Positions 11,438-52,442 of a stretch of 53,782 nucleotides of DNA are shown here, piece by piece; position 1 is the first letter of the stretch, and every line of letters begins with the position of its first letter. Location of the stretch: the NCBI GenBank assembly GCA_018398765.1, contig JAHBMJ010000214.1:1-53782 (forward strand), given 5' to 3'. This DNA comes from Chromera velia. Taxonomy: Eukaryota. The position numbers and the translations under genes were made by a program. Below the pieces are notes generated by a model. The model worked only from the letters and a program-made list of their open reading frames with translations, was not told where the DNA came from and ran no database searches.

Positions 11438-12574
11438 TTAAAAAATAGTAAATAATAACTCACCCCCCATATTAATAGTTTGGGCATGCTGTCAATGGAT
11501 TAAGCCTTTGGACGATGATAAAATTACTAGACCAAAAGGGAATTTACGGTTTAAAGTGTGCAATTGCCGTGCTCGAACATGCGGGTGTTTAGTGATCGTA
11601 CTTAATTGTTTAATTTTTATATGGCTAAGGGTTTTTAAGGAAAATCGGGCATCAAATTCTATTACAATAAAACTTTTATGCTCACCCGTAAATCAAGTTA
11701 TTTCTCTCATAAATGGTCACTGCTTTAATATTTTCAATCATTGATAAGTTTTATATGTTGCAGGTAAGAAACAAAACCTTTGATGATTAATGAGTGAGTT
11801 TCTAAAGAGTGTACAAAAATTGGCTAAACTATCTTTAATCAAAGGATTTTGTTGACGCACTTTCGTGGTAATCAACGTGTGAATTTCCTCAGGCTCTTCT
11901 AACATCTGTTGCTTATCCAAGTATTGTTTCTTTTTACCGGAAAGTGGTGGCGATTTAGGAGGTCATAAAGAAGCCTCTCTTAATTTTCTTGCAAGAGAAA
12001 AATTGCGAAACGCAACGGAGGAAAGATCTCCAGTTGTTTTTTTGGTGGCTTTCACCTTATATTGTGTAAAAAAATAACTTGGAAACGAATATCGTGCAAA
12101 CGGTAAAAGAACTGGTAACCAAAAAGGCGAATCCTTAACAGTTATACATCGTTTCTGTATTTTCAGGTTCTTTTTGCTATTACGCTTGTGATAGGTTCGG
12201 TTTTGTAACGCTCAGAACATCGCTTGAGTTAAATAGGAAAATTCAGTCATGTATTTGCGATTCAAGAATCTGTAAGCAATTTGATACGCTCATAAGGGGT
12301 AAGCTAAGACAAAGCCTTCTCCTGCTGATGTTAATGACCGCACCCGACGTGCGGAAAAAGGTTGAAAACTTCTAAGATACCAACGCGAGCTCTTACGACT
12401 TAAAGAAGTATTAAGTTGTAGGCACGGATGTCTATATAAAGTTTTGGGGGTGCCTCCAGCCCCAAAATAGAAGCGCTTTCTTCTAGATCTCACGAATTTT
12501 CGCTTTTTCGACAAAAATTTTTTAAAGATGGGATTCTTTCTATAAAAAAGGGATGAGATACGAGGAAAAAACAT
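11438..12574 (-). CDS. rps8: Ribosomal protein S8 with about 245-aa basic N-terminal extension (378 aa)
   Basis: S8 core from IKDSLANFCTLFRNS to LSSSKGL..A....GGELLFTIF. ORFs 12290-12586 and 11738-11920 are one continuous frame with TGA=Trp. Confidence 0.85.
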
Positions 12575-12645
12575 AGAAAGTTCCAAGCGCTATTATCACA
12601 TCACGTTTAATACAAAGTTAAAGCTGGACATCTTAGTTGAAGGAA

Positions 12646-13194
12646 TTAAAGATCATCAAAAAAAAAGAACCCAAAAAGCTCAAGTAACCTACGACTACTT
12701 GCATGCGTAGCATGAATGTGAATTGAAATATCTAAGCCGTTGGAATCATTTGAATCGATATTTGTTAATTCGGGAAAGCATTTTTGATTTTTAATGCCAA
12801 TATTTAAATTTCCTTGCTCGTCAAAACTACTTAAACCCAACCCTTTGTAATTAGGTACTTGTGGAAATATAACATGGTATAACTTTTCTAAAAAAGTAAA
12901 CATACGTTTACTGCGTAGAGTGACTTTCATACCTATAGGCATGTTTTTTCGCACTCGAAAGGTCGAGACAGATTTTTTTGCATACGTTAAAATAGGTTTC
13001 TGTCCGGTAATTTGTTGCAGCTCATTTAATGCTTTTTCAAGTGTTTTTTTATCAGTTAATTTGATACCAAGTGATCTATGAACAATAATCTTTTTAATAG
13101 AAGGAATTTGTACCGCATTTAATTTTAATAAATTGCGATACTGAGGGACAATATAGCGTTTATAAAGCGACTTAAAGTCAGGTAACCCTTTCAT
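12646..13194 (-). CDS. rpl5: Ribosomal protein L5 (182 aa)
   Basis: ITGQKPILTYAKKSVSTFRVRKNMPIGMKVTLR, SFDEQGN. Confidence 0.97.
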   Translation of the reverse strand: MKGLPDFKSLYKRYIVPQYRNLLKLNAVQIPSIKKIIVHRSLGIKLTDKKTLEKALNELQQITGQKPILTYAKKSVSTFRVRKNMPIGMKVTLRSKRMFTFLEKLYHVIFPQVPNYKGLGLSSFDEQGNLNIGIKNQKCFPELTNIDSNDSNGLDISIHIHATHASSRRLLELFGFFFFDDL

Positions 13195-13327
13195 AATGTT
13201 GAAACAAGAATTTCCGCTTCTTACCTAATGCAACCGCACCGCAATCAGTAAAAGAACTTACTTCATTGGGGCGCCAGCCTAGAAATGTTCCTGCTTTTAT
13301 TAAAAAATTTTCAAATCAAAACATCTT

Positions 13328-13696
13328 CTAAATAATATCTGGCGCAAGTGAGATAATGCGAGCAAAATCTTTGCCCCTAAGCTCAGATGCTACAGCACCA
13401 AATATTCGAGTACCTATCGGATTCTTACGATCATCAATCACTACAATTGCATTATCCTCAAATTTTACATATACATTGTTCTTGCGTTTTTGTTTTTTTC
13501 GAGTCCTTACTACAACGCCTTTAACAATACTCGAAGTTTTTATCTTGGCTTTAGATTGAGCATAAGACTTTAATACTACAGTAGTAATAACATCGCCGAC
13601 TTCTGCTCTTTTTTTATTATTAAATAAACCAATGCATTTTACCCTTAACGCCCCGCTATTATCGGCAACTTTTAAAATAGTATTTACCATAATCAT
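13328..13696 (-). CDS. rpl14: Ribosomal protein L14 (122 aa)
   Basis: LKVADNSGA, FEDNAIV, PIGTRIFG, IISLAP. Confidence 0.98.
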   Translation of the reverse strand: MIMVNTILKVADNSGALRVKCIGLFNNKKRAEVGDVITTVVLKSYAQSKAKIKTSSIVKGVVVRTRKKQKRKNNVYVKFEDNAIVVIDDRKNPIGTRIFGAVASELRGKDFARIISLAPDII

Positions 13697-13775
13697 AATT
13701 CTTTCATATCGCTTCTGTCATTATCTAAATAAAACTGATCAATCCCTAAATAGCCCAATTATTAAGCATGTGTAT

Positions 13776-14399
13776 TTAGAACATGAAGTTATTCATACAA
13801 TCCTTCCTTGCTGTTAGTTTTTGAAGCAAAAACTTATATCATTTATCGATATTAAGCTTATCAAATGTGTAATTGAGGTTGGAATGGGTTTGATTGTTAC
13901 GCGGAATCTTAACCCACTGCATTTTTCATTTTTCTCAAGGTTGCGCAACATCCATATAACGTGATTTAGATAAAAAAAATCTTAACTTAACATATCTAAG
14001 AGGTTGATAGCGCGCCAAATACCATAAATATCAAACGGGATATAATCCAAAGCCCGAAAAATAGCTGGCACTAAAATTGCGAAATCTATAACACAGTTTA
14101 ATTCGAATCAAACGTTTTTGAATCTTAGCTTGTGCACGTTTGATCCTATATTTCCTTTGCTTAGGGCAGGGATAAACATTACAAAATAAAATAAAATGTT
14201 TATACTTACTTTTAGGCCTAGTTTGCCGACCCAATACCACATCCCCAAAATTAACCTCTTGGCGTGGATCATGAATTAAAAATTTTCTATAGGTTATTCG
14301 AGATTTTAATAAAAATGGGTTTTTTATTTCATGAGGCATAAACAGTTTAAACGTATTAGGGGTGCTCTTTTTCAAGACAAACCCAATTTTCAAATACAT
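13776..14399 (-). CDS. rps17: Ribosomal protein S17 with about 125-aa C-terminal extension (207 aa)
   Basis: KFLIHDP..V..GDVV...TRPKSKYK S17 signature. Lies between rpl16 and rpl14. Open through TGA to TAA at 13776. Confidence 0.85.
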
Positions 14400-14487: not shown

Positions 14488-14937
14488 TTACGAGGGTTTA
14501 AACACGATACATGTAGTCGTGGGAAGTTTAAAGGCCGCAGACCTCAAGGCTTTTAACGCTACCCCAATCCGCACTTTAGGTAATTCCAACAAAACCGTAC
14601 CAGATTTTAATGGAGCCACTCAGCCTTCTACAGAACCTTTACCACAACCCATACGTGTATTTAACCCTTTTTTCGTTTTACTTCAATGAGCAAAAACATG
14701 TATTTTTACTTTACTAATCTTTTTGAGTTTTCGATTAATGACACGTCTGGCAGATTCAATTTGATTTGGGGAACAATTATGACCCTGACTTAATTGCAAA
14801 TACATAGATGTCTTTACGGGAGCCTGTGTCTTGACAAACCATGGCGAAAGACTTACTAAAGTTTGGCGAACCCTAGTTTTGACAAATTTAAATCTTTGGT
14901 ACTTTTTATATTTAGTACGTTTCGGTGTTAAGATCAT
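14488..14937 (-). CDS. rpl16: Ribosomal protein L16 (149 aa)
   Basis: PKRTKYKKYQR, QIESARR, TRMGCGKGSVEGW(TGA)VA, AAFKLP. Confidence 0.97.
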
Positions 14938-15037: not shown

Positions 15038-18000
15038 TTATGAAATGGTATAAGTAGAAACTTTAACGCCAAGTATACCCTGTTTGGTTTTTCAGGGCAA
15101 AGAAGCGTAACCTATCTGATCTGTTAGGGTATTTTTGGGTATGTTCCCTTTAAACCCAACGGCCAATTTTGTAAGCTTCGAGCGATCTGCTTTTTTACTT
15201 AAGCGGCCAGAAATTTTAATCAGAATGTCCGACATGATAGCAAGTCCCACACCTGCGGCCGCATTATACGCTCTTCGTTGTTCATTGACCTGAATTTGCA
15301 ATTCTCTTCCCACTCTTCTATAGGACATTCTATTACGTAGAGTAAAACCTACTTCATGATTAATTGCTACAGGATGTAAAAATGACATTTTAGTTTTTAA
15401 GTGTGAAATTTTTATGAAAATATTGGTTTTAAATTTGTACTCCATGTAAAACTTTCATTGAATAAATCGCCTAATAATCCGGGATCACTGGGTCCTAGCT
15501 AAAGTACCCCTTAATTTTACGGCTCAGGTCTCGAGTTTGGGCCCGATCTGATTCATATTTAACATTATATATTCTCAAAAATGTTGGTCTAATAACTGTA
15601 TTGTTCGAAAATTCAGACTTGGGGTATTGATTCGGAACTTTCTGACGTTTTCTCGCGCTTTTAATCTAGCTTTGTAAAAGTATCTGCGTTTAAAACGACG
15701 TTTCATTTTATATTGCACTAATGTTGTAGGCATCCGGAATGCCAACGGCACACTAATAACTTTAAGATACTTTTTACTTTTCTTAGCGGGCTTTCATGCC
15801 GCGTTACCTAACCCTGTTTTTCTTCCGAAAGAACGATGAAATACTGGGTTCTTATGGTATTGACGTTTAAGCAGCAAGCCGATGTGTCACGATCCTAAAA
15901 ATTTTAGTTTCCGGGGTGCAACCGGTTTTAACGAAATCATCTGAACTTGAAGTTTTCGTTGTAATCTTGTATAAATAACTTGGAGGTTTGTAGTAATAGA
16001 TGTATGATAAAGATCCTTACTTAAATTAAGAACCATTAAACGCCGAAGCATCTGATAAAATTTTCAAACAATAGACGTCCAGGTGGTCACGGGATACCAA
16101 AAACCTAGCGGATCTCAAGCATACCGAGGACTGTTTAAGATGGCTAGAGGAAATCAGGTTGGTTTATGTTGTTTCCCTTGATGGCCTAATTGACTTAAGA
16201 TAATTTTACAAAAAGGTGGGACCGTAGTTGAGCTCATACACCTAGGGGTTTTTTGTACATAAAAAGGACGGCTTGTTAGTCAAGTCCTAAAGTTTAACTT
16301 AGTTTTTTGTTCCAACAAAGGGTGAAAATATTCAATAGTTTCTAACGTACTAACCACTCACCCTCTTGGATCCCTTCCCCTCATTAAATATCGGTTCAAC
16401 CAAATCATTAAAAGTTTGTTTAAATATTTTCGATGTTTAGACTTAGCTTTGGGACCTCACCTAAGTTTATACAACTTGAGGATACCAACCGGAGGCCTCC
16501 ACCCATTGAAAATTAAAATATTTCTGCCGGTTTCATTTCCACTAAGCACTAGCCTTGGTAAATGTGTTACAACGTGGTGCCAGTGAAGCACAACACGCTT
16601 TTGAGGTAATGTTAATACCATCACATCCGCTCAGAGAAAAAGTTGCTCTACGTCAAGGTCTTGATGACTTACCCCTAAAAAATAACGCGTGACTTGACAA
16701 ACTTTTACAGAACCCATTCACAAAAAATTTTGTGATCACAACTCATCGTTACATAATTTCACAAGGATAAAATCAATTTTTAGGCGAAATCCAACTCAAG
16801 GCAAAACGTTTTGTTTTTTCATACATAAGATAAATTTAGATCAAAAAAACCTTCCTACATATTTAGCCCTCGAAGCTAAATAAATCAGTAACGATAAAGG
16901 CACCTCAGCTTTTCGACTCGTCAGAGAAGAAAAATATAGCTTTTTAAAATAATAAAGAGAAGTTTGGAGATAAAACTTTCTTATGTTAAAAATCTCACTC
17001 TTTAGCCCAATGAGCGGTCGTAGGTTTCACACCAAATAATGGGCCAGGGTGAGCGGATTAACATATGCGAATTGAAAAGTAGAGACACCTCGAGAACAAC
17101 TTGACTGAATAGCGCCAACTCAAAAACTAGGCAAATTTTCATACGCACTTTTAGAATCAAATTTTCATCATGATTCTCTAGTTAAACGAAGACACGGACT
17201 TAGGTCTTGATCCACAACATTTTTTTCATCCAACACTTTTTTAGATGAACAAACTTTGAAATTTAACTGCGTAAAGATAAGCCAATTACTTGTGAATCCA
17301 GGATGGAGTCTTCTTTCTCAAAAATAATAACAAAAGAATAGGGATCCGAGTTTTCTAAGAATTTTCATTGGTAATGTTAATACAGCTTGGGATTGTGCCA
17401 CTAATCAATAATCACGACAGGAACGTAGTCTGAAATGAAATCTATGGATTCAGTATCGAGACTTGTCTAGATTCGACTCTGGACCTTTTTTTAAACAAAT
17501 TGTTTTAGAGCAAGCTTCACTGAACCACCAACTTGGCCCAAAAATAAACCATAGTGACTTGCCGATTTTCGCCCGAGCCATTTTACCACCTAAAAGATTA
17601 GGAACCAGAACCTGTCTCAAGTTTAAGGCAGCAATTTTTTTAGCGGAAAGTGGTAACGCATTATGAAGTTTTACTATGTTATGCATCATTAAACACGGTT
17701 TAAGCCGCTTGAATATAGGGCCCTTGAAGGCACCTTGCTTTTTCGATAGGGCCTGTAACTTAAATACATACTGTAAAAGTGTCTTTTTGGATACCTGAAG
17801 TAAGACTCGATGTTTAGCTTGGAACTTTCCTGCGAGCGGAGTAGTTCTGGAAAACCTAGGATTGTTGAAATTTCTTGGGGTACCAAGAACTAAACTTTTC
17901 TGACTTTTACGTACAAACATCTCATGTGCAAAACTACCAGACCTAAAAGGAGCTAACTTTCCTTTTAACCCTTTCAATTCTTGGGTGGATGACACAAGTT

Positions 18001-18112
18001 TGGTTCTATGGTCAGGGAAAAAAACAATATCAGATTTCATTCTGGATACAAAGAACCACCTAGATCACAAATTACGGCTAAAAAGTTCAAATTTTTTTCT
18101 TGTACTAGGCAT
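15038..18112 (-). CDS. rps3: Giant ribosomal protein S3 (1024-aa frame)
   Basis: C-terminal S3 domain (IKISGRL, G.IP..TL...I.Y, KTKQGILGVKV) directly upstream of rpl16. Possible S3 N-terminal motif MKKQNVLPWVGFRLK at 16822. No TAA/TAG from ATG 18112 to TAA 15038. Confidence 0.85.
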
Positions 18113-18121: not shown

Positions 18122-21100
18122 TTAATATTTTTGATGACTTTCAAATTGTGTACCGCTTATAACGCAAGCTTTAGCATCTTGAATTCAGTCAACCTGATTT
18201 CATAATGAGGCTTTTATTAACGTTGCTGTTACTAGTCGAGCACTATATCCCCCGAGAACCCCATTTGCCAAGAGAGTTATCCTCGACATTCCTAAAACTA
18301 AAGGGACTACAAAACAAAGTTTAAATCCTAACTCGCCATAACTACGATTGAGTACTTGAGCTTCAGCCGAGGTTAAAATATCTGTTAGTTCTAAATTGGT
18401 ATCGCCCGGATCAAGTACACGCACCACCGAACTCATTTTTCGCACTAAAAATTCATAGTGCATATAAGGTAAAAAAATTCCACTTCGTTTGTATTGATCA
18501 ACTAACGATTCCAAAATAATCGTCTGTAAATAATGTTGCGAATATTTAAGACTTATAAATAGTGTTGAAAAGTTATAGTGACTATAAAACCTTTTTATGA
18601 CCATGGTTTGAAAATTAAGTGTTTCTGGTACAATATTATCTCCACCTTTCACAATTTCGGTTGGGTTTGGGAGCAGTGTATCAAGATTAGATAGGTGACA
18701 AGGAAGCGTAAAATAATTTCATGTGATCGGTCTGCTAAACGAATCGTTAAAGTGCTCATTTTTTAATAGTGAAAGTCGAGACTCTTTATGAATACTTTTT
18801 TGATCCTGATGGTTTCAAACTCTTTCTGCTAGGTGTTTCTCTGCCACTTTACAAGCATAAACGACTTTTAAAGCTTTTGACATTGATGCTGACCCTTTAG
18901 GTAATGTTCTCAGAAACTTGTATATGGGTTTTATAAATTTAGAGTAAGCCTTGGGGGTTTTTCTGTTTAACGCAGGAAAAGTTTTATTATTATCAGTTCA
19001 ATACCCTTCAGAAACTCCCGTATGTCTCAAATTTTGAACAAAATTATTTAACTGCTTACATTCATGACTATGAGAAGACTTTTGTGTTAGTGGATAAAGG
19101 TTTCTTCACTTCAACAGATTATCTATCTGGACTCGTCGCTGGAACTTTAATATAGGATACGATATTCAATAACCTTCGCTAGTAATCTGCCCGTTGATAA
19201 AACTATGTTCGGGTCTTAACTGATTATAGGATAATAACAATGTTTTTTTATATAACTTGTTATCCTTATCTTTTCATACATACCTAGTATTGTAAAAACA
19301 AAAATGAGTTTTTAACCATAACTCTCAAATCTGGTACCTATGCAACATCACTAACTTAGGATAATATCAAGTAAAAGGTTTAGCAGTTAATGTTTTTAAC
19401 CAAGAAAATTCTATTGTATCTTCTCCAATTAGGAAATTTACTAACTTTGAACCATAGACAAAATCTAAAGGATTGTAAATTTTGTTTCATCTTTGAAGTT
19501 TATTTCAGAAGAGCCGATTCAGAGAGTAGGTTAATAAGTTTTTAATTTCACTTATAAGCGATTGCGAACAGCTGAGATTTTTTAATTTTACATACAGTTC
19601 AAACTTACTAAGATCTTTTCCTAGGTACCGCAAAGAAGCTCGCATCTGCCTAAGTTTTAAACGAATTTTAGGAAGGTTGCTTGGGTCAACTTGTTCTTGT
19701 AACCAGCCTAAGTAAGAATAACTTCGTTGAATTCGATTAGCTACATTATCAGCTTTTCTCGTGCGTAGATAAATTTTAACGTTCTCTCGTGGTTTTCGAT
19801 CTACAACTTGTTTTAAAAAATCACTTCCACTCAATGGTACTTTTTCTGCCGTGGGTGAAGCTACAACTATCTCGTTCTTAGGATTTTGATCTATGACCTT
19901 AGCAGGAGGACATATATTTAGGCTTGAGACTCCTGGGTTCGGCAGCTTTTCATGGACAATACTCTTGAATTGAACGCGAGTCGAAACAAAATTTCTTGCA
20001 TTTTTTGTTGTTGGGAGTTGTCGAGTAGAAAATAATTTGATCTTCTTGTTGTTTCTGTTTATACTAAACGTTTGTGATATAGTGTTTGGCTCATGTAACG
20101 TATCCGAAGCTCCTTTCCTTTGGTCTTGATTTTTGAAAGCGTGATAAAATTTCGACATTTTAGACGTAGATCTTTTTTCCGGAAGGAAACCCACTATGCG
20201 CTTCGCCTTAACTTCTAGTTGGTGACGTTTAGCTTTTAGCTTGTCAACCTGCTTCATTTTACGAACTTTGCTTCTAGTGACACCTTGAAATGCTCCCGAA
20301 GGTCAATTCTTAGAATCCTTTACAGTCCTTTTTAAAGACTTAAGCATTTCTTTACTGCGACCCTTCGGGAACATAAGATCTTTCGATAGCCTACTTTGGC
20401 CGACAAAATTATTTCAGGTCTGCGTTGGTTTCCGTGGAGTAGAGAATATTTTATTTTGACTGTTTAACGTCTCTTGACACCTTGAACTCCTTAGTAGTAT
20501 CACTTTACTTGTGTACTTCGGACCACTTACGACTTCTTTACAGTTTAATTTCTGGCCTGAAACTTGTGCCACTTTCTCAGATTTTCATCTCGAAAAGCTC
20601 TGTTTTGAGTTTTTATAACCTTTATCTTTTGGCAATATAAATTTACCCTTCGACAGCCCCAATTGCTGGGGAGTATAGTCTGACTTAGCGTTTATTTTAA
20701 AGGGCAATTTTTTCTTTTTTGTGGGTTTTCTTTTACGTTTAGCGATCCCAACTTTACTGTCACCATCAGATCTAGAAGACAAACCTTCCTTCCTTAAAGA
20801 CTTGCTAGAATTCAACTTTAGAACCATTTGTGAAGAGGCTTTGACATCAGGCTCCACAGGGCCGAAGGACTGTTTTGATCCGCCCTTGTCCTCATTATCG
20901 CCAGTCAACGAGATTCCTTCTTGCTCATGAACCCAAGGTATAAATAAATCTAAAAACTGTCTAAAACTTTGTGTATTTATTAAGAGGTGAATCTTTCCAG
21001 ATTCATCTTTCTGCAAATGCTTATACTTTAATGGAAGACTTCACATAGCATTTTTTAGGACGAGTTTATATCTTTGATAGTCAGGGATTTCAGGCCAGCA

Positions 21101-24100
21101 AGACGTTTTGTGGGGAGTTGAAAATAAAAACCCTACCGTAGTGCTGAAAGATTTCAAAATAAACGAGTCGTGAACGATTTTATCATTTCAGATTTTAGGG
21201 CATACTAATTTTTTTATTCCCGAAGGTTTTAATAAAAGAGCTAATTGAAGACTGTTTTTGAATATACTACTACTTTTTTGGACCTTGAGTTGATTAGGCG
21301 TAAAGATACTAAGTCAAAGAGGAAGTGCTTCTGGTGAAACAGTCCATATATGGGGGCATCAGTCTGTCACTAAGCCAGTAACATCTGTCACTATAGACTC
21401 GGTACGGCTTTGCCGGGCTTCTACTACATTATCCATGTAACGTAAACCAGCGATTATATCAAAAGTTTTTTCGGGAGCGTCATAAGAAAAGTAATGCTTA
21501 TTGTGATTCCCACCTTCCCAAGGTATATAAGCTAAATAAGGTCAGTTACTTGGAAATGTTCAGGTTTTTAATGCTTTTAAGAAAGATCCTTGATTTTTAA
21601 CAAGTTTGCGTAACCCAGGAGAGCTTGCACTATTAAAATTAGCAACCCATCCGTATATATAAGTTTGAAAAATACCTTCATTTTCTCAAGAAGTTCACAT
21701 TAGTTTAGGAGAAAAGGTTAATTGAGGGTAAATTGACTTTTTATCGCAGTCCTTTTTCATTAAGTGTTGTCACGTGGGCTGCATATTTTGAGGCAGACCT
21801 TTCTCACACTGGCAAAGTTTTGGTACCACTTGTATAATTTTAAAATAATTCATATTTTGAATGCGTTCATTACTTCGGCTTGGTGTCGCTAAGCCTAATC
21901 AAATCTTAGCCTCTATAATAGTTAAGGGTTCCATATAATCACAATTTTGAGGAATGGATAAACGGTTCCCCGAATCTCCCATTACTAAACCCCCTGGACT
22001 AAATTTCCGCAGTTGGAATCTTTGAGTTAAACTATTGAAGGTGTAAGTTCTTGATTCTTTACTTTGCGATGTTCCCATACACCAGGTACCGGGCGTCATA
22101 CGGCGATAGTTTGCGCAAATAGACATTGGTACCTGATGCCCGAGAAAAAGTAGACCTTCAGGCTCCTCCGAGGTTCATCGATTAGAACCCTTAGTTTCAA
22201 TTGATTGTTGATTAACATTGGATATCGCTTCCGGTATGATTTCACTTTGCGATTGCACTCACAACCAAAACCATTTATGAAAAGCAAATGTTCACGAATT
22301 AAATATTTTTTTGCGGTAACTTAAAGTCAAATTATTTCGGTAGTGTAAACTATGGAGTCTAAAATTTAAAGATGAATGACCGTCCAAAATACACCAGGGT
22401 TTCTTTGTAGTGATCTTTAAAGGCGTTAAGATGTTTTCTGACCTTTGGGTGAAAAGATCAGACGTTGAGAGCTTCAAATAATTATAATAATAGAAAAGAT
22501 ACGCCAATGGGAATCAACCGACATTACGTTTAATTGACACGAAGTGTGAAGCCCAAGCCTTATGGTAGGGTCTTTGTTTAAAAGGATTTAAAGCATTAAT
22601 TGTTCCTTGCTTAAAACTTAAGCGTTTAGAAGACTTTTGTCTAAAAATCTCATAAGACAATGTTCAAGAACTAGCATAATAAAATTCTCAACTGAGCCCT
22701 GTTGTACGATCTGGTAAGTATAAGTGCTTGTCTTCCTGGCCAATTTGAAACGCGTTATTTAAAGTAATGCCTCTATATGCGTGACGTTTATTAGACCCGT
22801 CCACGAGATTTTTAAATGTAACATTAATCAGATGCGCACACGTTTTAGCATTACTCGTATTTTTGATTAAACCTGCTAAATTAGGGACGAAAAGTAATTC
22901 TTTGGGATAGGTCGTAAGACCCCCTTCCAAAATTCCATAGCGTTTTCAAAACACTCCTGGTTTTGAGAGTATACTTAAGCATATATTCTCGAATTTAATG
23001 GCTTGTGACTGAGTTGCTTCTAAATGTGTCTCGCCAAAAAGTTGGTCACTATGATAAGTCAAATTCCAGGCACGGAGCGAAGGGCTACTTGGCACACTAT
23101 GGGTAGTCATCAGACGACTTTGCGTAGAGACCCCTATGCCCCATCCTTTTGGTCAATAAGGTAAAGGGCCTGTTACTGATCCTTTTTCCACATCAGACAG
23201 GGAAATAAAAGCACCGTATTCATTTGTCAGAGTTAAATATAAGTTACTAGGACGCACCTTAAATTGTAACCTACTTAACCAGTCAGGAATCCGTGGATCG
23301 AAAGACGAGGAGGGGAGTCTAACAAGGAGATCTAAAAATCTTTGGAGCCATTGTGTGGTTACAGACGCAATATAAGCTCTTTTCTTTTTATACTTAAATG
23401 ATAGAGAATTATTAGCTGGCCAAATGTTATGCTGGGTATATGGAGTTCTTGTATCGGTTTGCTCCAAACCTAATAAATCAAATATTTCTTCTTTGAGCAC
23501 AACACCCCCACTATGAAATGTTCTCAGAACCATTTGAGTACAAGGTTCTCCCACACTTTGCCCAGCTAAAATCCCAATGTTCGTCGTAATCCGGTGGAGT
23601 TGGTCTTTACTTTTGAAACATAAGCCACAGCAAGCTTGACACAAATTAGTAAATCCTCAACATGTCAACGGAGATTTAACATCCAAAAATTCAGCATAGA
23701 GCAATTGCTTTAAAACCAACTTGGTATTCATACGATTTAAAACCGTGTTTCGGCTACAAAGAATTTGGCCGGTTTTTTTATGCATTATAGAGTTAGTTAT
23801 TAGTTTACCGTATAAAAGTAAAAAATCTAATGGCCTACAACTTCCTTGAATCCGGTTTCCTGCTGAAACTTTTAAATAAAAGCGACTGAAACACTGTTCT
23901 TCTTTAATCTTAAAATTATAACTAACTTCTATAAATCGCCTAGTCAAATAGCCTGCGTCCGCTGTTCTTAACCCCGTATCGACAACACCTTTACGGGCCC
24001 CATAAGAGGCTAAAAAGTATTCGAAAGGTTGAATTCCCTCATAAAAGTTATCCATTACCGGTAAACTTCCAATAATCCCTCGAGCATTAGCTGTAAATCC

Positions 24101-24538
24101 TCTAAAGTCAATAATTTGTCGAAGTTGTAAAGGGGTTCCACGGGCCCCCGTCTTTGACATTAAATTAATAGAGGAAGGAAGAATATGTTCTCAACTCGTA
24201 ATATTAAGTAAATTCTTTAAAAATTCTGTACGATCCTCGTAGAAGTTCTGCATATAATAGGCCATATAATCGTGACTGCTTTTGTAACCCTTAATCCCTA
24301 ATAGTAATCCACGATTCGGATCTGTACTTAATGTATCTTCGATTAATTTAGCCCCAATCGATACTTCTAAATCATCTAAATTTATTGAAACAAGATCGCG
24401 TGTACTGTATTCAAACCCCAAAGACATCATATCCTGTAAGTATTGTGGAGCACTTTCTTCCCCCCCGTAATGTTTTAAAAGTAAAATTAAATTTTCTACA
24501 TGCTGTTTGGCTTTTAGATTATTCATAAGTAAAATCAT
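18122..24538 (-). CDS. rpoC2: RNA polymerase beta'' subunit (about 2138 aa, large insertions)
   Basis: TGARG, YGARKGVVDTGLRTADAGYLTRR, CQACCG, AGQSVGEPCTQMVLRTFHSGG, DIIAGL...EAR, VDWIQDAKACVISG. The TGA-bounded ORFs share one frame; most but not all gaps were read through. Confidence 0.92.
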
Positions 24539-42152: not shown

Positions 42153-45100
42153 ATAAGGTTAGAAGACAAACTTAACAAAAGAATCATAGATTTGTGTAAG
42201 ATAGATTTTTGATCGATCCCTGATTTAGAAGATTATCTGCCACCAACGGTCATATCCCCTTTTCATCTTGATGGGGGACTAGAAAGTTCGAAAGGCTATG
42301 TATTTGGTTCTTCTACTATACGGAAAACTAGTTTCGAATCTTTATCGTTTGCTCTTTTATCTCCGTCTAAAGTTTTAGCCTGATCCATTAGGATTCTTCC
42401 TAATTTTTGATCAAAATTCGATCCGGCTTGAAAACAGACCAAATCGTATTTACTGCACGGGGAAGTATCTGATCCTAGGTTAATGAGTCGATTTTCTATA
42501 TTCGAAGATGCAGTAATCGCTATTGAAAGAGTGTCGCTACTTCCTCTTTATACCATTTTATATAGACTTAAAGGAATTTTATTTGAATATGGGCTTGACA
42601 AACGTCTTATTTCATTTAGTAACAGCACTTGAGTTGAAAATAACGTTTCTGGAGCTCATAGATATTGAGAAATTAAAGATAACTGATTACAATTTCGACC
42701 ATTTATTCCAGAACTTGTTAAATTATCAATTTTACAAGAATTAAGTATGTATGGCTGTAAAGGAGAAATTTCGGTACCTTTACCTAAACAGAAGACAAAG
42801 ACTTTTAGTGAAAAAGGGCTTTATTCTGAACAAATTTTTGGCCCTTTAACGTCATTTTGTTGTGCTTGTCATTTAATTCAAAATTTTAGTGCCGATGAAA
42901 TTAGTGCCCTGTCTATTGATCCCTTCAATAATTTGTGTCCCATTTGTTATGTTGAAGCCACAAATACTGAAGTTCGTCGACATCGACTCGGTATTATATC
43001 ATTTAAATCTCCTATGGTGCATCCTTGGTATGTATATAACAATCCTTCTTATTTAGCCTTATTCCTCAATATTCCGACACAAATGCTATTTGATATACTC
43101 AATTTGGAACCAATTTTAGGCGAGTTAGCTTTACCCAAGCATGCTTTATATTTACCTAGCATTTTTCTTAATAGTTTTGAAAATGTTAAGGGTTTTCAGA
43201 ACTGACATGAAACTTATGTAGAAAAACCTACCTTATCAGGACGAGAAAAAAACTTAGCTTTACGAAAGTGAAACCGTACATATTGACATGAAAAAGTTTT
43301 CCCAGTTTGATTAAAATCCAAAAAAGTTTCGCACAAGTATTTTAGTTTTTTTTATAATAATTTATTTAAAGATTTTACCAATATTTTATATATTCAACTT
43401 TTACCATTAGAATATTTGTATACGCTTTTAAATTTGATTGAAAGATTTTTATGTACACCGGTACACATTTTTTCTCGTTACACTAAATGAACAAGACTTT
43501 TTCAAGACTTATTTTTACGTACTTATGTAAATTATAGTTTTATTGTCGAAAGTCTATCTGTACGCTTAGATTATGCACCTTTTATTAAATTATGTTTGTT
43601 TACAAAGAAACAACCCGTGTCGATACCCACGTATGCTAAATCTCGATATATGTTAATCAACAAATTGGGTGGAAGTGTTTTGGATATGAGGCGTCAATTA
43701 GTACAACTTATTGCGAGTGAAGAATTTAATATGGACGGAAACTCTACACTTTATGACGCCTCATTGCCGCCTTTCTCTTTTTTTCATTCGAATTTTGCTG
43801 GTTGAGAGGGATTTATACCTCAATTTAATAATATTAAAATACAATCATGTAAGTTATTAGGACATCTTAATAGTACCCATGCTATGCGCTCCGTTTTGGG
43901 ATCACATATTTTTTATAAAAATCCTATTTCTCTAGTTATAAAAAGTTTAAAAAGTATGTTCTACAAGGTATGTTTACAATATACCTTTCTAATTACGGAT
44001 ATTCAACCCTTCGATGGTATTATTGAACCAATTATGCAGTATCGGGATTGACCCAATTATAAAGTTGAAACAACGAGGAGTAACAAACAACCAGCGTCTA
44101 TTATTTTTAAGGGAGAATACACTATTTCTCGAGACTCATTATTAAGTTACTGGCAGCATTGATACACTATATGACAAACATTACAAGTTTTTCGTGTGAC
44201 TGAAGAAAATTGATTTCATCATTTAATTCAGCGTTATTTAGTTCCCTTACTTTTATCCCGTATGCCCCCACTCAATCCTAAGCAAGATAAACGTCCAGTT
44301 TCTACTCTTCTTACTCAACGGTTGGATAAATTTTATCTTCAAGAACCGAAAAAACCAGTGCTCTCAATTCTCCCGCATACCAAAAAAAGACGGTTAAAAA
44401 AACAAAGGAAAATTTTGTATTGATTTATGACTCACAAAGAGGAGTGATTAAACTTTTTCTTTGAGTCTAAACTACACAAGCACAATTTAGTAGAGGATTT
44501 TACTTTAATACCCCCACCATATGATCTTCATTTGATGACGTTTCAAGCGTTGATGAATGAACGTAGAAAAGTTCCTTATTGTAAGTATCGTTGAAAGTAC
44601 TGTACTTTGGGAACTTACCTCCCTAAATTTTGATATGTGTTTACCAGTTTTCATTCTGTCACAACGAATGACCATATGCTCCAGACTTATGGCCAGTTCC
44701 GTAGAAATCGAACATTAACACATACACCGCCCTCTATTGCTAGTGGAGCGACGGTAATTTTTGATTATCTAGGGCGCAAGTATACGCCGTACCGATATAG
44801 TTGAAATTTAAATAGTCCTTTATTTTTTAAAGCGCGGACTTCAACCCATAATTCTGGCATTTCTTGAACATTTAGAACAGTCCAATGAATGCAGAAGCGA
44901 TTATGTTTTATCTTTCATCTATTAAAACTACATCCTAGTTGGTTTTTTTTTGTGTATTTGCCAGTGTTACCTCCTGGATTAAGGCCTATTTATCAGGTAA
45001 GTTTTTTAACTTATACACTCTCAGATTTAACAAAACAATATCGGTCTTTATTGATTCGAAATCAACGTCTTTGTGAACCTTTAAACACCACCTTAAATTT

Positions 45101-46205
45101 AACTTTATACAATAACTTATTTTTACAAGAGAGTATTAATTTTTTATTTAACCACTTCGGGCCACGTAGTTCATGAAATTCGTCGAGATGACGGCCTTCA
45201 AAAGGATTAGTTCTTTTAAAACAATACCAAGGTAAATATGGACGGTTTCGATTTAATTTATTAGGCAAACGAATTGATTATTCCGCGCGTTCAGTGATTA
45301 CTTCAGGATCTGGTTTACCCTTTTCTTATTGTACAATACCATTACAAATGGGCTTTAAATTGTTGGAACCTATGTGGGTAAATCGCATGTTAGAATTTTG
45401 TTTAGTCCAAGAAGAAAATTTAGAGGAAGGATATGTCGATCCATCCTTGTTAAGTGAGCAGGACAATTGAGACGACCTTCAAGTCTATGACGACCTTTTA
45501 GACGAAGACGAAACCTCAGAGGAAATAAATTTAGAACAATCATTGGTTGCCAACGAACAAATGTTATGACCAGAAACCCTTTCACGAAACTTACTTCAGG
45601 AGTTAATTCAAAATCGATTAATTTTAATTAATAGGGCCCCTACGCTACACCGAATGAATTTTCAAGCTTTTCACGGCTTACCAAATTTGGCTCGCAATTT
45701 GGGGTTTTATCCTGTTGCATGTAGTTCATTCAATGCGGATTTTGATGGAGATCAAACTGCTATCTTTATGCCTTTATCTTTTGAAGTACTCTCAGAAGCT
45801 TACCATATCTTGCAGTTTAAACAAAATTTAATTTCGCCAGCCACTCAAAAATTACTTGGAAATGCCTCCCAAGATATAGTACTAGGAATGGTAAGTTTAA
45901 ATTCACCTAATGAAACACGCTATAAATCGTTAAGCCTATATTTTAGTAATTGAAATGACTTTAAAACCACGGCAAATCATGGCTTATTACCCTTACAATC
46001 GAAATCGTGAGTACGCATTATGTATAACTGTTTAACTCTGTCCAAAACCATCAATTATCAACACCTATTTTTACAAGATTTGTCGCTATATTATACATGA
46101 AACACCTGACAATGGAGGCTGAAGACTCATCAGTTGTCTCCAGATTGAAACAATTTATGAACAACATATTTGTACATACCACCCACTAACGCGTTAGAAT
46201 TTTAA
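42153..46205 (+). CDS. rpoC1: RNA polymerase beta' subunit (about 1350 aa; start uncertain, non-ATG)
   Basis: LSPSKVLAWS, GLYSEQIFGP...C.C...CPIC, LPVLPPGLRP, GRFRFNLLGKRIDYS, NRAPTLHR, catalytic FNADFDGDQ. Confidence 0.93.
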
Positions 46206-46374: not shown

Positions 46375-47145
46375 ATGTCTCGATTTAGATTTCTGCGGGA
46401 TCCGGTTTGTGCTCTGTCTCCACTGGATCGTGAAGAAATTTTTTTATTTCGCAATCGGCCAACCTTCGTTTTGTTTAATGTGTTTAATAATTATGGTGGA
46501 TTAAAAACTAGACGTGAGACTCGCTTTTCATGAGCACAACAGAAAAAATTACGGAGGGCGGTTTTGAGGCATCGTCTATGTGCAGCATTACCATTTAGAT
46601 CTTTGAAACAAATTCAAGCAGACCAGGTAATTGCTTGTCGCCCTGAAACTCAACAAAGTGTGAGTTTAACCTCCACGCCATTTAGATTAAAAGAAGAATG
46701 AGAACAATTAAAAAAAACTTATCAAGAAGAAGCTGCCAAAAAGGAAGCACAAGCTGCATTAGACGAGTTGGCTGAAGGGGCCGTTCAACAAGTCGAAGTT
46801 AGTTCAAATTCTGAGCAAAATACAAATATAAATCGCAAGTCTTCTGTTATATCTGAAGTCTCTCCCGATCCCGGGGTAGTTACTTCCTCGCAAAGAAAGG
46901 TTCCTGGAAAAAGGAAATTTCCACCTAAAGAGCAGTTCAATCAAACTTCGCTAACAAACGTGACTCCGCCAAAAAAATTGTCGCACAAAATGACGGGATC
47001 CATTGAGGTTAGTGGAAAAAATATGCCTCTAGAAAAAAAGACGACACCATTACGAAAAGCCAAGCTTTGAAAACGCAAAGTATTTAAACGAAAGATATTT
47101 AAGTCTAAATTGAAAAATCCGAAAGCGTCAAAGAATAATAACTAA
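46375..47145 (+). CDS. rps18: Ribosomal protein S18 with long C-terminal extension (256 aa)
   Basis: VFNNYGGLKTRRETRFSWAQQKKLRRAVLRHRLCAALPF matches S18 (GKILSRR.T....QQR....AIK.AR..LLPF). Frame continues into ORF 46768-47070 and ends at TAA 47143. Confidence 0.82.
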
Positions 47146-47504: not shown

Positions 47505-49196
47505 ATGTCAATACCTTCCGATTTTGAACGTAACCAGTGATCAAACCTGCCCAACCGCAAAGCATCTTCACGACACAAAAAGGTTAGAGATAATCGTCCT
47601 ACTACCTCTAAAACTACTAATTTTAGTGTTTCCCAGAAACCTTTGGGTAAGCAAATACCAGAATCGAGGACGGTAGAAGGTCCATTTAAGAAGCGGAAAC
47701 CTTATAAATGAAAGAGCAAAAGGTCTGAAGTGAGAACAGCTGATACAAAGGCTTCTTCTTTGGGTTTAACATCGTTCAAACTAACAAAAACAAGGAACTT
47801 TAAGACACTGTCGGGGCAAAAAGGACCAGAATTGAGGACGGCTGACGTCCCATTTAAGAAGCTTAAACCTTATACACCAAAGAGCAAAATTTCTGAAGAT
47901 AGACCAATGGATAAAAAGGCTTTTTCGTCCGTGGCCGCACCGTGAAAACCAACCAAAACTATGACCTATAAGGTCTCTAAGAAACTTTTCGGGAAAAAAG
48001 GGCCAGAATTGAGAATGGTCGACGTCCCATTTAAGAAGCCTAAACCTTATAAATCCACGAGCAAAATCTCCGAAGGAAGACCAATAGATAAACCTTCGGG
48101 GGCGACATCGGTCAAACTAAACAAAACTAAGAATTTTACTGTCTCTGAGACCATATTAAGTCAACAAAGATCAGAATTGCCCGCGTTAAAAAGCCCAGAG
48201 AAGAAGGAGGAAAGGTATGAACCAAAGAGCAAAATTTCGGAAGGTAGACCAAATGATCAAACAACGGCTTCAGCGGGTAATTCATCTTTAAAATCCACAA
48301 AAAATATGAAAATTGACGTGCGCGGCGCAAAAAAAAAGAAATCCTGGGATCATGTTAGTCGAATGATTCAAATGTATAAATCTACCGTGTGACGCCCAAC
48401 GCCTAAAGAGTTATATAAAACGAATTATTTTACGGATTTTTTTGATGCGTATCCTGCCTTTAGACGAATTTTAAAACAGGATCAAATGGCAATCATTATT
48501 TTATACTTTCAACTGTCAAGAAAGAATACTAAGATTAGTATAATTCAGTCTAATGAAGCGATTCACTTAAAAGTTATTCGAACCATTGATGCTACCACTC
48601 CTTTGTATGGAGAGGTAGCAGTTTTTAATTTAGAAAAACGATTAGAAGGACTAAGATTTTTACCTCAGACGGTCAGCTTTAATGAATTATATATTCAAAA
48701 ATATGCTATTTTAGCAAAGCTAAAAACCTTTATCACTTATTATTCGCAAAAATGAGCAAGTGAAACGTTTTTAAACTGAAGTCATCCAAAGACATACTAT
48801 TTTTTACATAAGTATAACGTACCATATGATTATTTAAAAACGTTTAATTTTGACGATTTAACACAAGCATTTCGTTTACCAAAAAGAAAATTTGTTCGAC
48901 GTTATGAACGATTACTAACCTGTTTTACTGCTGGAATGCTACGTTTAGTAGGTAAACGCCGGAGTACCCCTTTTGCTGCAAGAGAAATTACATCTAAGGC
49001 TATTCGTTATATACGAAAACATGATTTTGTTTATGTAAGAGTCTTTTTTCGTGGAGTTTCAGCTAATCGAACTTACATTATTAGGACTTTATTTTCGACA
49101 AGTTATTTTGGATCAGCTTTAAAAATTCTATCTTTAGCGGATATTACTTCCGCTCCTTATAACGGCTGTCGTCCAAAAAAATATCGTCGCCGGTAA
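47505..49196 (+). CDS. rps11: Ribosomal protein S11 with repeat-containing N-terminal extension and internal insertion (563 aa)
   Basis: ILYFQLSRKNTKISI, TAGMLRLVGKRRSTPFAA, DITSAPYNGCRPKKYRRR. Four track ORFs share one frame joined by TGA. Confidence 0.88.
47605..48310 (+). repeat. Four degenerate coding tandem repeats of about 55-60 aa within rps11
   Basis: Consensus KT.NF.VS...G...PELR..D.PFKK.KPY..KSKISE.RP.D recurs four times. DNA-level similarity includes CCATTTAAGAAGC in three copies. Confidence 0.9.
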
Positions 49197-49263
49197 TTGA
49201 CCTTTTAGTGAATTTAAACTTTTCCCTAAACGTAGACCCCATTAGCGAGGTTTTTTTTAGTTA

Positions 49264-49506
49264 ATAAGATGACGAATCTACTGATTTATTGCTAAGGTAA
49301 GTTCTATATCATGGTTTAAAAAAGTTCCCGTATTTTGTGACGGGACCCTTATTTTATTTACTCAATCAACTAAACCTCAACTAATGGTTGATAATTGATC
49401 TGGGATACATAATGCTTATAAAAAATATCGAGGCGAGATTGTGGATGGAGAGAAAATTGATTATTGGCAATCTAAAATCCGCCGTTACAGACCAGGAAGG
49501 ACATAA
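49264..49506 (+). CDS. rpl31: Ribosomal protein L31 (non-ATG start, approximate)
   Basis: WFKKVPVFCDGTLILFTQSTKPQLMVDNW(TGA)SGIH matches plastid L31 (KVYCDG..I...STKPEL.VDIWSGNH). Confidence 0.9.
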
Positions 49507-49539
49507 GGTTAGAACTATTGATACGGAACTCTTCTATCT

Positions 49540-50256: not shown

Positions 50257-50261
50257 ATAGA

Positions 50262-50609
50262 ATAATCGGAGTCACTGTTTTTTTAACATCTCGCAATTCT
50301 GTCTTTAAGACACGGTATCTTGTCAATGTAGCCTTTTGAACGTGGGGTCGGTTAATCTCGATATTAGTTCAATTTCTGTTACATAAAACGAGTATTTACC
50401 GAGTCGTTAATTTATTTTCAATTATTTTAGTAAATTTACACGAAATTAAATACCCGAAGTATAATTGAATTAAGCAGGAAGTCATCGCGGGTAAAGCTCA
50501 TCATGGAGGATGACGATTTTTTGTTAGATTGATAGCAGACGTTTGGCACAGATTGCCTAAAGGATTTAACAAGAAAAGGCTTAGTAAATCATTGAAATGA
50601 GTCTTATAA
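50262..50609 (+). CDS. rpl13: Probable highly divergent ribosomal protein L13 (115 aa, ATA start)
   Basis: [27 protein letters not shown] (cf. KKWYIIDA...LGRLA..IA..LRGK), [10 protein letters not shown] (cf. VIVINAEKI), VWHRLPKG...RLSKSLKWV (cf. VKGMLPKG...KLF.KLKVY). Canonical position after rpoA. Confidence 0.7.
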
Positions 50610-50673
50610 TTTCCTTACAAAGGAAAGCTTTTTTAAAAAGTTAAATATTACGTTATTCTGCGGTTTAAAAAAA

Positions 50674-51051
50674 ATTCCAACTTTTGAGCAGCTCAAACGC
50701 GCTGGTCGTTTTCCCAAAAAACGTCGGAGCAAAACCCCTGCTTTACGTGGGTGTCCGCAAAAAAAAGGTGTTTGTTTTAAAGTATTTGTCAAAACGCCTA
50801 AAAAACCAAATTCGGCATTACGAAAAGTTATTCGTGTAAAATTAAGTACTGCAGTTTTTGTTACAGCTCATATACCGGGGGAAGGACATGCTGTACAAGA
50901 ACATAGTATCGTGTTGATTCGTGGGGGACGGGTTCGCGATTTACCAGGAGTTCGCTATCGATTGATTCGTGGAACCTGTGATGCACAAGGTGTCACTAAA
51001 GGACGTTGAAATGCGAGGTCAAAATACGGTGTGAAAAAACCTAAACTATAA
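50674..51051 (+). CDS. rps12: Ribosomal protein S12 (ATT start)
   Basis: (I)[59 protein letters not shown]. Missing from the ORF track. Confidence 0.98.
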
Positions 51052-51113
51052 CCTCATTGTTGGTTTTTAGCCTTTCATCAAATTAGGTAAGAGGGGTTGT
51101 TATAATTGTAACT

Positions 51114-52442
51114 ATACCACGCGTCTATAAAAAATGAACGTTTGTCCATAAAATTTTTTATGATTTACGTCTTTTCACTAAAGAGAACGAAGGTCGTATT
51201 TTACTAACAGGAAAATTAAATTATTTTATGGTTAATCGGATACAGCGTCGAGGATGCAACTCGTTGGCTCGGAAAATTTGAAGTAAAACTTTATTAAAAG
51301 TAGAAAAACAGTTAAACCGGTCTATTAAAGATATTCTAGAAGAGATCTTTAGATTTTTAATTCCTCCAGTTGGAATTACTTTTCTTAAAAAAGCTAACCA
51401 AGTGACAGAATTACCTGTTATACAGCCTTATTATCGAGCGGTTCCTATGGCTATAAATTGAATTTTAGAGGCTGCAAGAAAAAAGAGGGGTGTGAAATTT
51501 GTAAATGCTTTAGTAACAGAGTTTGTGGACCTGTATAATTTTACTGGTGCGGCTAGTTCACAAAGAAATAAATATCTACGTCGAAGTCTAGCTGCAGAAG
51601 AAAACTTTCATCTACTTTATAGATTACCAAGACGTCGGTTACCTACTCAACCAGCTGTTGTAAAAAGGGATACAGTAACCTCAGAAGAGACAAGTAGCAT
51701 AGATTCATCTTACGCTGTAAAACTATCGACGCGCAAGTCTTCTACTTTCTTCCCTGTTCCACGAGCTAAAAGTTTTTCCAAAGAACAACTGAAAAAACAA
51801 AAAGTATTTTATAAAATTCAAGAAAATCGAAGATATAAGTATGGTGGACGATTTTATTGATTAAAGAAATTATACAGGTCATTTCAAAAACTTGTACCGT
51901 ATTCTGTCTTACTATTGATATGACATAGAACCTTGGTTCGAGAATATAGGTTATTTACACCTGAATTGTTAAGCACTTTATTTCTTAGTTCGAGCCAGAC
52001 GTTGGGATATTTTTGAAATTTATATTTTTGGCAAAGTCAGACACTTTTTACGGCTGTCGAGACTACAGCCCTACTATTTCCGGACCGGAAAAAAAAAAGA
52101 AGAGTTAACTGTGCTTCTGTACCTGGCCCTTTGCGGCCGCACATTTCACAATCTGGATCACGGTCGCTAAAATCTTTTATGTTCAAGCAAAAAAAACCTA
52201 GGAATCAAGGTAGAAAAGCTTCGCATATAGAAGATTTAAAAAAAATAGCTGTAGAAAAACCTCCGGTAACAAAAGGAATACCTTTAACAGAAGGAGTTAA
52301 ACTAAACATCATGAGAAGGTTACGTTGGACAAAAGACTCGAAGTCGTTAATCCTTAGAAAAACTGCAACGCCAAAGCCTAAGCGACCTAAACTCCAAAAA
52401 ATACTTCGGTCTACAAGCCGACACCATAAGAAGGATCGATAA
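51114..52442 (+). CDS. rps7: Ribosomal protein S7 with about 285-aa C-terminal extension (442 aa, probable ATA start)
   Basis: MVNRIQRRG..SLARKI, AINW(TGA)ILEAARKKRG, AEENF. Follows rps12. Frame continuous to TAA 52440. Confidence 0.87.

What the first reader, a model, noticed from the sequence alone, without database searches (positions are those of the whole stretch)
11438..52442. Systematic inflation of small-subunit but not large-subunit ribosomal proteins
Seen: S3 1024, S4 2072, S7 442, S8 378, S11 563, S17 207 and S18 256 aa. L5, L11, L14, L16, L31, S12 and S14 are near normal size. Typical sizes are roughly 215, 200, 156, 132, 130, 85 and 72 aa, so about 4,000 mostly basic residues are added to the 30S. 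Inference: a remodelled protein-rich 30S, analogous to mitoribosomes, in which extensions may replace lost proteins or rRNA segments or recruit mRNAs. This is the best candidate for an undescribed system in the window.
Basis: partly seen in the sequence, partly recalled or inferred. Interest (0 to 1): 0.85.

Follow-up and report, generated by a model that had tools for sequence, protein, structure and literature searches.

The report
Swollen 30S proteins in Chromera plastid
In the chloroplast DNA of the alga Chromera velia, seven genes for the small half of the ribosome are 3 to 10 times their normal length, and the roughly 4,000 extra amino acids likely form a protein coat around the mRNA path, as already seen on a smaller scale in the green alga Chlamydomonas.

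Summary
The window is Chromera velia plastid DNA (PsaC 80/80 identical to PDB 9HYU; TGA=Trp). Read with table 4, S3, S4, S7, S8, S11, S17 and S18 are single open frames 2.9-10.4 times normal length (+3,981 aa, about 470 kDa). None of 6 large-subunit proteins in the window is doubled (Fisher p=0.007).

The extensions look like coding sequence: no stops, in-frame codon bias, and Lys/Arg excess in 6 of 7. rps11 and rps18 extensions are transcribed (published). Strain differences suggest only weak constraint (15 of 38 silent, omega about 0.5).

Corrections: residues are about 20% basic, not mostly basic. RNA polymerase subunits are inflated too (+1,951 aa), and L4, outside the window, is about 335 aa.

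The long proteins are already in UniRef/nr. A 30S 'arm' built from such extensions is solved in Chlamydomonas, but no homology to it was found. This is probably a larger, convergent variant. Incorporation into ribosomes is unshown, and internal starts could bypass the N-terminal additions. Replacement of rRNA or lost proteins could not be tested.

The parts
11438..12586 (-). rps8: 382 aa from TTG (378 from ATG at 12574); about 245 aa N-terminal addition, core at the C-end
   Evidence: start 12586 matches PMC3894158 Table S2
13776..14399 (-). rps17: 207 aa; core 5-71, about 135 aa C-terminal addition
15038..18112 (-). rps3: 1024 aa; C-domain 896-1021; about 810 extra aa upstream, no homologue found
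24626..30844 (-). rps4: 2072 aa from ATA (1998 from TTG at 30622, the deposited length); core 1893-2012; about 1,870 extra aa upstream
46375..47145 (+). rps18: 256 aa; weak core match 37-74; about 180 aa C-terminal addition
47505..49196 (+). rps11: 563 aa; core 471-562; about 440 extra aa upstream, including degenerate 56-aa (168 nt) repeats at about 47610-48270
51114..52442 (+). rps7: 442 aa from ATA; core in the first about 160 aa, about 285 aa C-terminal addition
50674..51051 (+). rps12: normal size (125 aa from an ATT start); control
36195..36380 (+). rps14: 61 aa, short; control
10709..11362 (-). rpl6: 217 aa, mildly long (+42); control
12646..13194 (-). rpl5: 182 aa; control
13328..13696 (-). 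rpl14: 122 aa; control
14488..14937 (-). rpl16: 149 aa; control
37325..37714 (+). rpl11: 129 aa; control
49261..49506 (+). rpl31: at most 81 aa stop to stop; control
18122..24538 (-). rpoC2: 2138 aa (+908); inflation outside the ribosome
37757..42022 (+). rpoB: 1421 aa (+325)
42192..46205 (+). rpoC1: 1337 aa (+718)
31767..31840 (+). tRNA with anticodon TCA (labelled SeC by ARAGORN; inferred tRNA-Trp reading TGA)

Best explanation
Seven Chromera velia plastid genes for 30S proteins carry long, open, lineage-specific additions that are likely translated in full and likely built into the ribosome as a basic protein coat on the solvent side, around the mRNA entry (S3, S4) and exit (S7, S11, S18), convergently with the Chlamydomonas small-subunit arm. 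Shown: the frames, their coding character, and transcription of the rps11 and rps18 additions (published). Inferred: the additions arose by accretion during a genome-wide protein expansion that also hit RNA polymerase (tandem duplication is visible in rps11). They are tolerated where termini face solvent (recalled 30S topology) and are now held by weak purifying selection, probably because they bind rRNA or mRNA and each other and help hold mRNAs that lack Shine-Dalgarno sites.
For: No in-frame stop in 1,841 S4 and 851 S3 extension codons, against 94 and 42 expected; the other five frames carry 60-139 and 14-62 stops. In-frame synonymous codon score is positive and above the +1 and +2 frames in 7 of 7 SSU additions. 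K+R exceeds base-shuffled expectation in 6 of 7 (z 3.5-9.1; S18 0.6), more than in the polymerase inserts (z 1.9-2.9) or SecA (0.2). In contigs of runs X6/X8, 15 of 38 extension changes are silent against 9.5 expected (p=0.03, omega about 0.5); no indel row over 11400-30900 in 4 runs with partial cover. Published rps11 RT-PCR primers lie at codons 12 and about 320, inside the addition, and gave product. rps18 circular RT-PCR clones span the whole CDS, and no editing was seen. C-terminal additions of S7, S17 and S18 (about 600 aa) cannot be skipped by internal starts. SD-like motifs precede 1 of 17 ATG-start genes, against 8% background. Precedents: the Chlamydomonas arm built from uS2c/uS3c/uS4c/uS5c extensions, and structured extensions retained in C. 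velia photosystem I.
Against: No protein-level evidence was found. rps4 alone is not significant (11 of 31 silent vs 7.7, p=0.12), and omega about 0.5 is far above the 0.115-0.141 of the Chlamydomonas arch (within-species and between-species values are not directly comparable). Codon bias of the additions (0.002-0.081) is below that of core genes (0.11-0.23). One X8 contig (depth 3) has a +1 insertion in the rps18 tail. In-frame ATGs lie shortly upstream of the cores of S3 (794, 803), S4 (1800, 1824), S8 (224) and S11 (328), and no canonical N-terminus could be placed at the far start. The same inflation in RNA polymerase shows that it is not ribosome-specific. No homologue of the S3 or S4 additions was found.
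Confidence: 0.55

Rival explanations
1. Neutral baggage: the additions are translated and ride on the ribosome as largely unstructured, functionless mass; selection keeps only the frame open and the charge compatible with RNA.
For: omega about 0.5-0.6 and non-significant for rps4; weak codon bias; degenerate repeats in S11; possible frameshift in the S18 tail; parallel inflation of RpoB/C1/C2.
Against: Silent excess when pooled (p=0.03); Lys/Arg enrichment is stronger in the 30S additions than in polymerase inserts; about 470 kDa per ribosome is costly; comparable additions in Chlamydomonas and in C. velia PSI are ordered and make contacts.
Confidence: 0.25
2. Core-sized proteins only: the N-terminal additions of S3, S4, S8 and S11 are upstream ORFs fused in frame, and the ribosomal cores are made from internal starts or cut out of a polyprotein, while the upstream parts act as separate proteins or are degraded.
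For: In-frame ATG/ATA/ATT codons near each core; a KCKL stretch at S4 1848 sits about where the bacterial S4 N-terminal KCKL would fall if the core were contiguous (not significant); non-ATG starts are used here (S12); this plastid makes split proteins.
Against: Does not apply to the C-terminal additions of S7, S17 and S18; it needs four independent in-frame fusions kept without a stop; the first about 40 residues of S11 have no clear contiguous match before residue 471.
Confidence: 0.15
3. Mitoribosome-like replacement: the additions substitute for deleted 16S helices or for lost 30S proteins.
For: General precedent in mitoribosomes (recalled); ESM Atlas features place S3 1-890 nearest long eukaryotic S3 and uS3m clusters (scores 0.82-0.83, a lead only).
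Against: Nothing here tests it: no rRNA gene in the window and no nuclear genome held. In Chlamydomonas the arm sits on an unchanged 16S with a nearly full protein set.
Confidence: 0.12

Closest known systems
Chlamydomonas reinhardtii chlororibosome SSU arm/arch (PMC12919044, PMC13684679)
   Same: Insertions and extensions in conserved small-subunit proteins, including plastid-encoded uS3c and uS4c; positively charged; concentrated on the small subunit around the mRNA channels.
   Different: There uS2c +666, uS3c +497, uS4c +97, uS5c +512 (1,772 aa); here +3,981 aa over S3, S4, S7, S8, S11, S17, S18, with S4 alone +1,872. No sequence homology found. Red-lineage secondary plastid. Strong purifying selection there, weak signal here. 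Structure solved there, none found here.
Known C. velia plastid protein expansion (Janouskovec et al. 2013, PMID 23974208; PSI structure PMC12830998)
   Same: Same genome. The long S3, S11, S17, S18 and RpoC2 are deposited letter for letter in UniRef/nr, and S4 at 1998 aa. I recall the 2013 abstract reporting expressed proteins with extensions of hundreds of residues, ascribed to intragenomic duplication (paper not held). PSI extensions are ordered in cryo-EM.
   Different: I found no paper that states the small-subunit bias or examines the C. velia plastid ribosome; the 2010 and 2013 papers could not be read and may say so.
Long mitochondrion-encoded uS3m/uS4m (ciliates, eustigmatophytes; fungi and plants recalled)
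   Same: Organelle-encoded S3 and S4 grow by hundreds of residues (Euplotes rps3 767-768 aa; Lys-rich expanded rps4 in Neustupella).
   Different: Mitochondrial; some are split into separate ORFs; whole mitoribosomes are remodelled with nuclear-encoded proteins in both subunits (recalled), which is untested here.

Membership tests
uS3, uS4, uS7, uS8, uS11, uS17, bS18 protein families | Conserved core domain present in frame | tested here: met
   Pfam E 4e-7 to 1e-12 for six (S3 is under the curated cut-off); S18 only E=0.024, supported by the published gene label
uS3, uS4, uS11 | Canonical N-terminal segment retained (decides insertion versus N-terminal extension) | tested here: inconclusive
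   Sub-profiles from 10-30 bacterial sequences gave no position better than shuffles; PDB searches blank; AlphaFold low outside the core
Chlamydomonas-type SSU arm | Large additions in plastid-encoded uS3c and uS4c | tested here: met
Chlamydomonas-type SSU arm | Homology to the chlorophycean uS3c insertion | tested here: not met
   phmmer of S3 over 1.84 billion representatives gave only itself and a 98-aa match to the core
Chlamydomonas-type SSU arm | Extended uS2c and uS5c plus PSRP3/7/8 | not testable with these tools
   rps2 lies outside the window; no nuclear genome held
Chlamydomonas-type SSU arm | Strong purifying selection on the components (omega 0.115-0.141) | tested here: inconclusive
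   omega about 0.5 from 38 within-species changes, p=0.03; rps4 alone p=0.12
Chlamydomonas-type SSU arm | Additions present as ordered density on the ribosome | not testable with these tools
   needs cryo-EM or mass spectrometry; single-sequence AlphaFold of S3 was uninformative (pLDDT 35.9)
Mitoribosome-like remodelling | Reduced or fragmented rRNA replaced by protein | not testable with these tools
   no rRNA gene in the window
Mitoribosome-like remodelling | Loss of canonical proteins and gain of new nuclear-encoded ones | not testable with these tools
   no genome held
Mitoribosome-like remodelling | Expansion in both subunits | tested here: not met
   0 of 6 LSU proteins in the window doubled; outside it L4 is about 335 aa and L2 about 290 aa, derived from published coordinates

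The most novel reading that the evidence does not exclude
Chromera velia has by far the most protein-laden plastid small subunit yet seen: about 470 kDa of new, homologue-free, basic protein, including a 248 kDa S4, forms an ordered mantle over both mRNA channels that recruits SD-less mRNAs and docks the equally inflated plastid RNA polymerase, evolved independently of the Chlamydomonas arm.
Probability: 0.2. Interest if true: 0.8.

Novelty: new variant of a known kind. Interest (0 to 1): 0.5.

Why it matters
Plastid ribosomes were thought to be nearly bacterial. The 2026 Chlamydomonas structures broke that view, and their authors expect greater elaboration in secondary plastids. C. velia offers that test from sequence already in hand: over twice the added mass, on a largely different set of proteins, in a culturable relative of apicomplexans whose photosystem I has been solved. 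If the additions are ordered, two distant lineages independently built protein around the 30S mRNA path, which points to a shared pressure such as SD-independent initiation or polysome organisation. If they are disordered or removed, it is a clean case of neutral complexity. The long ORFs themselves are not new.

Tried and rejected
Table 11 and other stop sets: only TAA+TAG as stops gives gene-sized frames at sensible density. Homologue searches for the additions were blank: S4 near-length (only itself), S4 core among shorter proteins (none), S3 representatives, S4 in viral and metagenome contigs, L14 in metagenomes, Atlas for S4 1-1800. These searches need close words or large clusters and do not show absence. 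Expression from public runs: no RNA holder listed. X6, X8, X11 and X13 are RNA only by guess; X11 and X13 laid nothing, and no joints were seen in contigs; none of this is counted for or against. Placing canonical N-termini in S3, S4 and S11 by eye looked tempting but failed against shuffles. AlphaFold of S3 without an alignment: pLDDT 35.9; no fold search was run on either model. Duplication as source of the additions: a self-comparison found repeats only inside rps11; S3, S4, S7, S8, S17 and S18 match nothing else in the window; the rest of the genome was not available. Rows dropped before the selection count: 4 clustered rps4 changes (29388-29392), 4 rpoC2 rows, 1 intergenic row; 5 rps18 rows from the indel-bearing X8 contig and 11 core, rpoA or intergenic rows. 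No complex prediction was run: no pair with an alignment and an open answer. Earlier scan notes: none. Anti-SD status in the literature: no paper found, one paper not held.
Full report
What the window is. Under table 11 the window has almost no long frames; with TAA and TAG as the only stops it fills with genes, and it encodes a tRNA with anticodon TCA. The genes are petB, psbH, psaC, atpA/H/I, secA, secY, rpoA/B/C1/C2 and ribosomal proteins. PsaC is 80 of 80 identical to PDB 9HYU chain C, the Chromera velia photosystem I (PMC12830998). Seven gene ends tabulated in PMC3894158 map onto the window with one constant offset, to within a base. The window is therefore about 54 kb of the C. velia plastid genome. 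It holds no rRNA gene, and no whole genome was available.

The observation. Lengths under table 4 are S3 1024, S4 2072, S7 442, S8 378, S11 563, S17 207 and S18 256 aa, 2.9 to 10.4 times the profile lengths, +3,981 aa in all, about 470 kDa. Cores lie at the C-end in S3, S4, S8 and S11 and at the N-end in S7, S17 and S18. S4 2072 and S7 442 depend on ATA starts; this is plausible because S12 has no ATG and aligns from an ATT codon, but the deposited S4 is 1998 aa. L5 182, L6 217, L11 129, L14 122, L16 149, L31 at most 81, S12 about 125 and S14 61 are not doubled: 7 of 9 SSU against 0 of 6 LSU, p=0.007.

The additions are 19.5% Lys+Arg and 5.8% Asp+Glu, like ordinary ribosomal proteins. The inflation is not confined to the 30S: RpoB, RpoC1 and RpoC2 carry +325, +718 and +908 aa. 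Outside the window, coordinates in PMC3894158 Table S2 give L4 about 335 aa (typical about 210, recalled), L2 about 290 aa and S19 at most 121 aa. rps2, rps13, rpl3 and rpl36 could not be sized. The contrast is one of degree, though a strong one.

Are the additions coding? They contain no stop where 94 (S4) and 42 (S3) are expected, while the other frames are full of stops; shuffled windows reach at most 321 codons. Synonymous codon choice follows the core genes in frame and not in the +1 or +2 frame in 7 of 7 additions, though more weakly than in the cores. Lys+Arg exceeds base-shuffled expectation in 6 of 7 (z 3.5-9.1; S18 0.6), against z 1.9-2.9 for the three polymerase inserts and 0.2 for SecA. 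This suggests selection for RNA contact rather than an AT-bias effect (inference).

Are they transcribed? From PMC3894158 (passages and supplements 1, 2, 3, 5 seen): the rps11 RT-PCR primers map to 47538-47555 and 48447-48465, inside the addition, and gave product. Circular RT-PCR clones of rps18 run from about -130 to beyond the stop. No editing was found. Mean read coverage of the seven genes (289-891) is like that of rpl14, rpl16 and rpl5 (421, 423, 733); this is a per-gene mean, not coverage along the additions. My own run search listed no RNA holder and is not counted.

Are they conserved? Runs X6 and X8, labelled with the same organism, hold contigs about 1-3% different from the window. 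One search showed 40 of 159 difference rows; 35 lie in the rps4 addition, 11 of them seen in both runs. One search showed all 23 rows for 46300-52600, 12 of them in additions. After dropping 4 clustered rps4 changes and 5 from one indel-bearing contig, 15 of 38 are silent against 9.5 expected for the same substitution types (p=0.03, omega about 0.5). rps4 alone gives 11 of 31 against 7.7 (p=0.12); with the suspect contig the count is 18 of 43 (p=0.01). In cores, 3 of 3 rps12 and 1 of 1 rps11 changes are silent. No indel row appears over 11400-30900 (bins with depth: 30, 24, 25 and 13 of 30). Against: one X8 contig of depth 3 has a 9-nt deletion and a +1 insertion in the rps18 tail; it may be an error, a nuclear copy or a real truncation. 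Depths are mostly 3-10, so single rows may be wrong. Constraint looks real but weak. No outside homologue was found: S3 against 1.84 billion representatives gave itself and one 98-aa core match; S4 gave only itself.

Insertion or N-terminal extension? This decides whether internal starts could bypass 3,370 of the extra residues. Profiles from 30 S4, 16 S11 and 10 S3 bacterial sequences found no significant place for the canonical N-terminal segments. In-frame ATGs lie shortly upstream of each core. AlphaFold was uninformative for S3 and confident only for the S11 core. The question is open. It does not touch S7, S17 and S18, whose roughly 600 added residues follow the core.

Origin. The rps11 addition contains degenerate repeats with a 168-nt period (66-69% identical; visible in protein), so tandem duplication built part of it. 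The other additions match nothing else in the window.

Mechanism. By recalled 30S topology, S3 and S4 line the mRNA entry, S7, S11 and S18 the exit and platform, and S8 and S17 the body. SD-like motifs precede 1 of 17 ATG-start genes, no more than background (8%). The best reading is accretion on solvent-exposed ends, later fixed by contacts with RNA and with each other, giving a coat that steadies mRNA (0.55). Rivals: functionless mass (0.25), core-sized products by internal starts or cleavage (0.15), replacement of rRNA or lost proteins (0.12; not exclusive, untested).

Comparison with what is known. Two 2026 preprints solve the Chlamydomonas chloroplast ribosome with a small-subunit arm made of uS2c, uS3c, uS4c and uS5c additions (+666, +497, +97, +512) around the mRNA channels, on an unchanged 16S (PMC12919044, parts 1-3 of 6 read), under purifying selection of omega 0.115-0.141 (PMC13684679, passages and two sections read). 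Neither mentions Chromera; the first predicts more elaboration in secondary plastids. C. velia works like this case on present evidence but is not a member by homology. In C. velia itself, PSI subunit extensions are ordered and stabilise partners (PMC12830998, passages and Introduction). Of 10 window proteins looked up, 7 are in UniRef/nr letter for letter, including S3, S11, S17, S18 and RpoC2; my versions of S4, S7 and S8 were not, probably for their starts. I recall that Janouskovec et al. 2013 report extensions of hundreds of residues in this genome; that paper and the 2010 one were not held. Nine searches listed no paper on the C. velia plastid ribosome or on a small-subunit bias; only listings were seen for most hits, and subscription papers are not covered. 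Passages only were seen of PMC4137713, PMC13060386, PMC4810238, PMC4873144, PMC3318907 and PMC6733595.

Verdict. A real and extreme feature whose parts are on public record and whose kind is known from Chlamydomonas. The small-subunit bias, the scale and the composition signal make it a good, directly testable target. New variant of a known kind; interest 0.5.

Noticed in passing
window 18122-24538, 37757-42022, 42192-46205: RpoC2, RpoB and RpoC1 carry about 1,950 extra residues, while RpoA (49540-50256, 238 aa) is short and matches only the first half of the alpha profile.
   Followed up: partly
window 30844, 51114, 50674: rps4 and rps7 probably start at ATA and rps12 at ATT; the deposited S4 starts 74 codons downstream.
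   Followed up: partly
outside the window (PMC3894158 Table S2): orf1173 follows rpl4 and orf634 follows rpl2, roughly where rpl23 and rpl22 stand in the usual operon (recalled). They could be unrecognised, inflated large-subunit proteins.
   Followed up: no
window 173-1870: AtpA has a C-terminal addition of roughly 75 aa, and the first ATG/GTG/TTG in its frame lies about 49 codons inside the conserved region.
   Followed up: no
window 46826-47061 (run X8): One contig of depth 3 has a 9-nt deletion and a +1 insertion in the rps18 tail.
   Followed up: partly
window about 15200 and 21016-21080 (runs X6, X8): Contigs match briefly and then run on into unrelated sequence; one carries a stop in the rpoC2 frame. 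Likely plastid-derived pieces in another context, such as nuclear copies.
   Followed up: no
window 1-108, 52867-53131, 53378-53636: Three tRNA-Lys(TTT) copies with flanks: an inverted copy at the window start (95%) and a 76%-identical duplication around atpH.
   Followed up: no
window 35845-36025: 97-bp tandem duplication (97% identical) between secA and rps14.
   Followed up: no
window 4109-5278 and 6981-7958: Two unassigned ORFs of 389 and 325 aa with no Pfam match; the first has no PDB match but is tabulated as well expressed.
   Followed up: partly
whole window: SD-like motifs precede only 1 of 17 ATG-start genes, no more than background.
   Followed up: partly
window 11400-30900 (run X5): A marine sediment metagenome holds near-identical sequence (53 of 63 laid contigs at least 99% alike, all 30 bins covered).
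   Followed up: no
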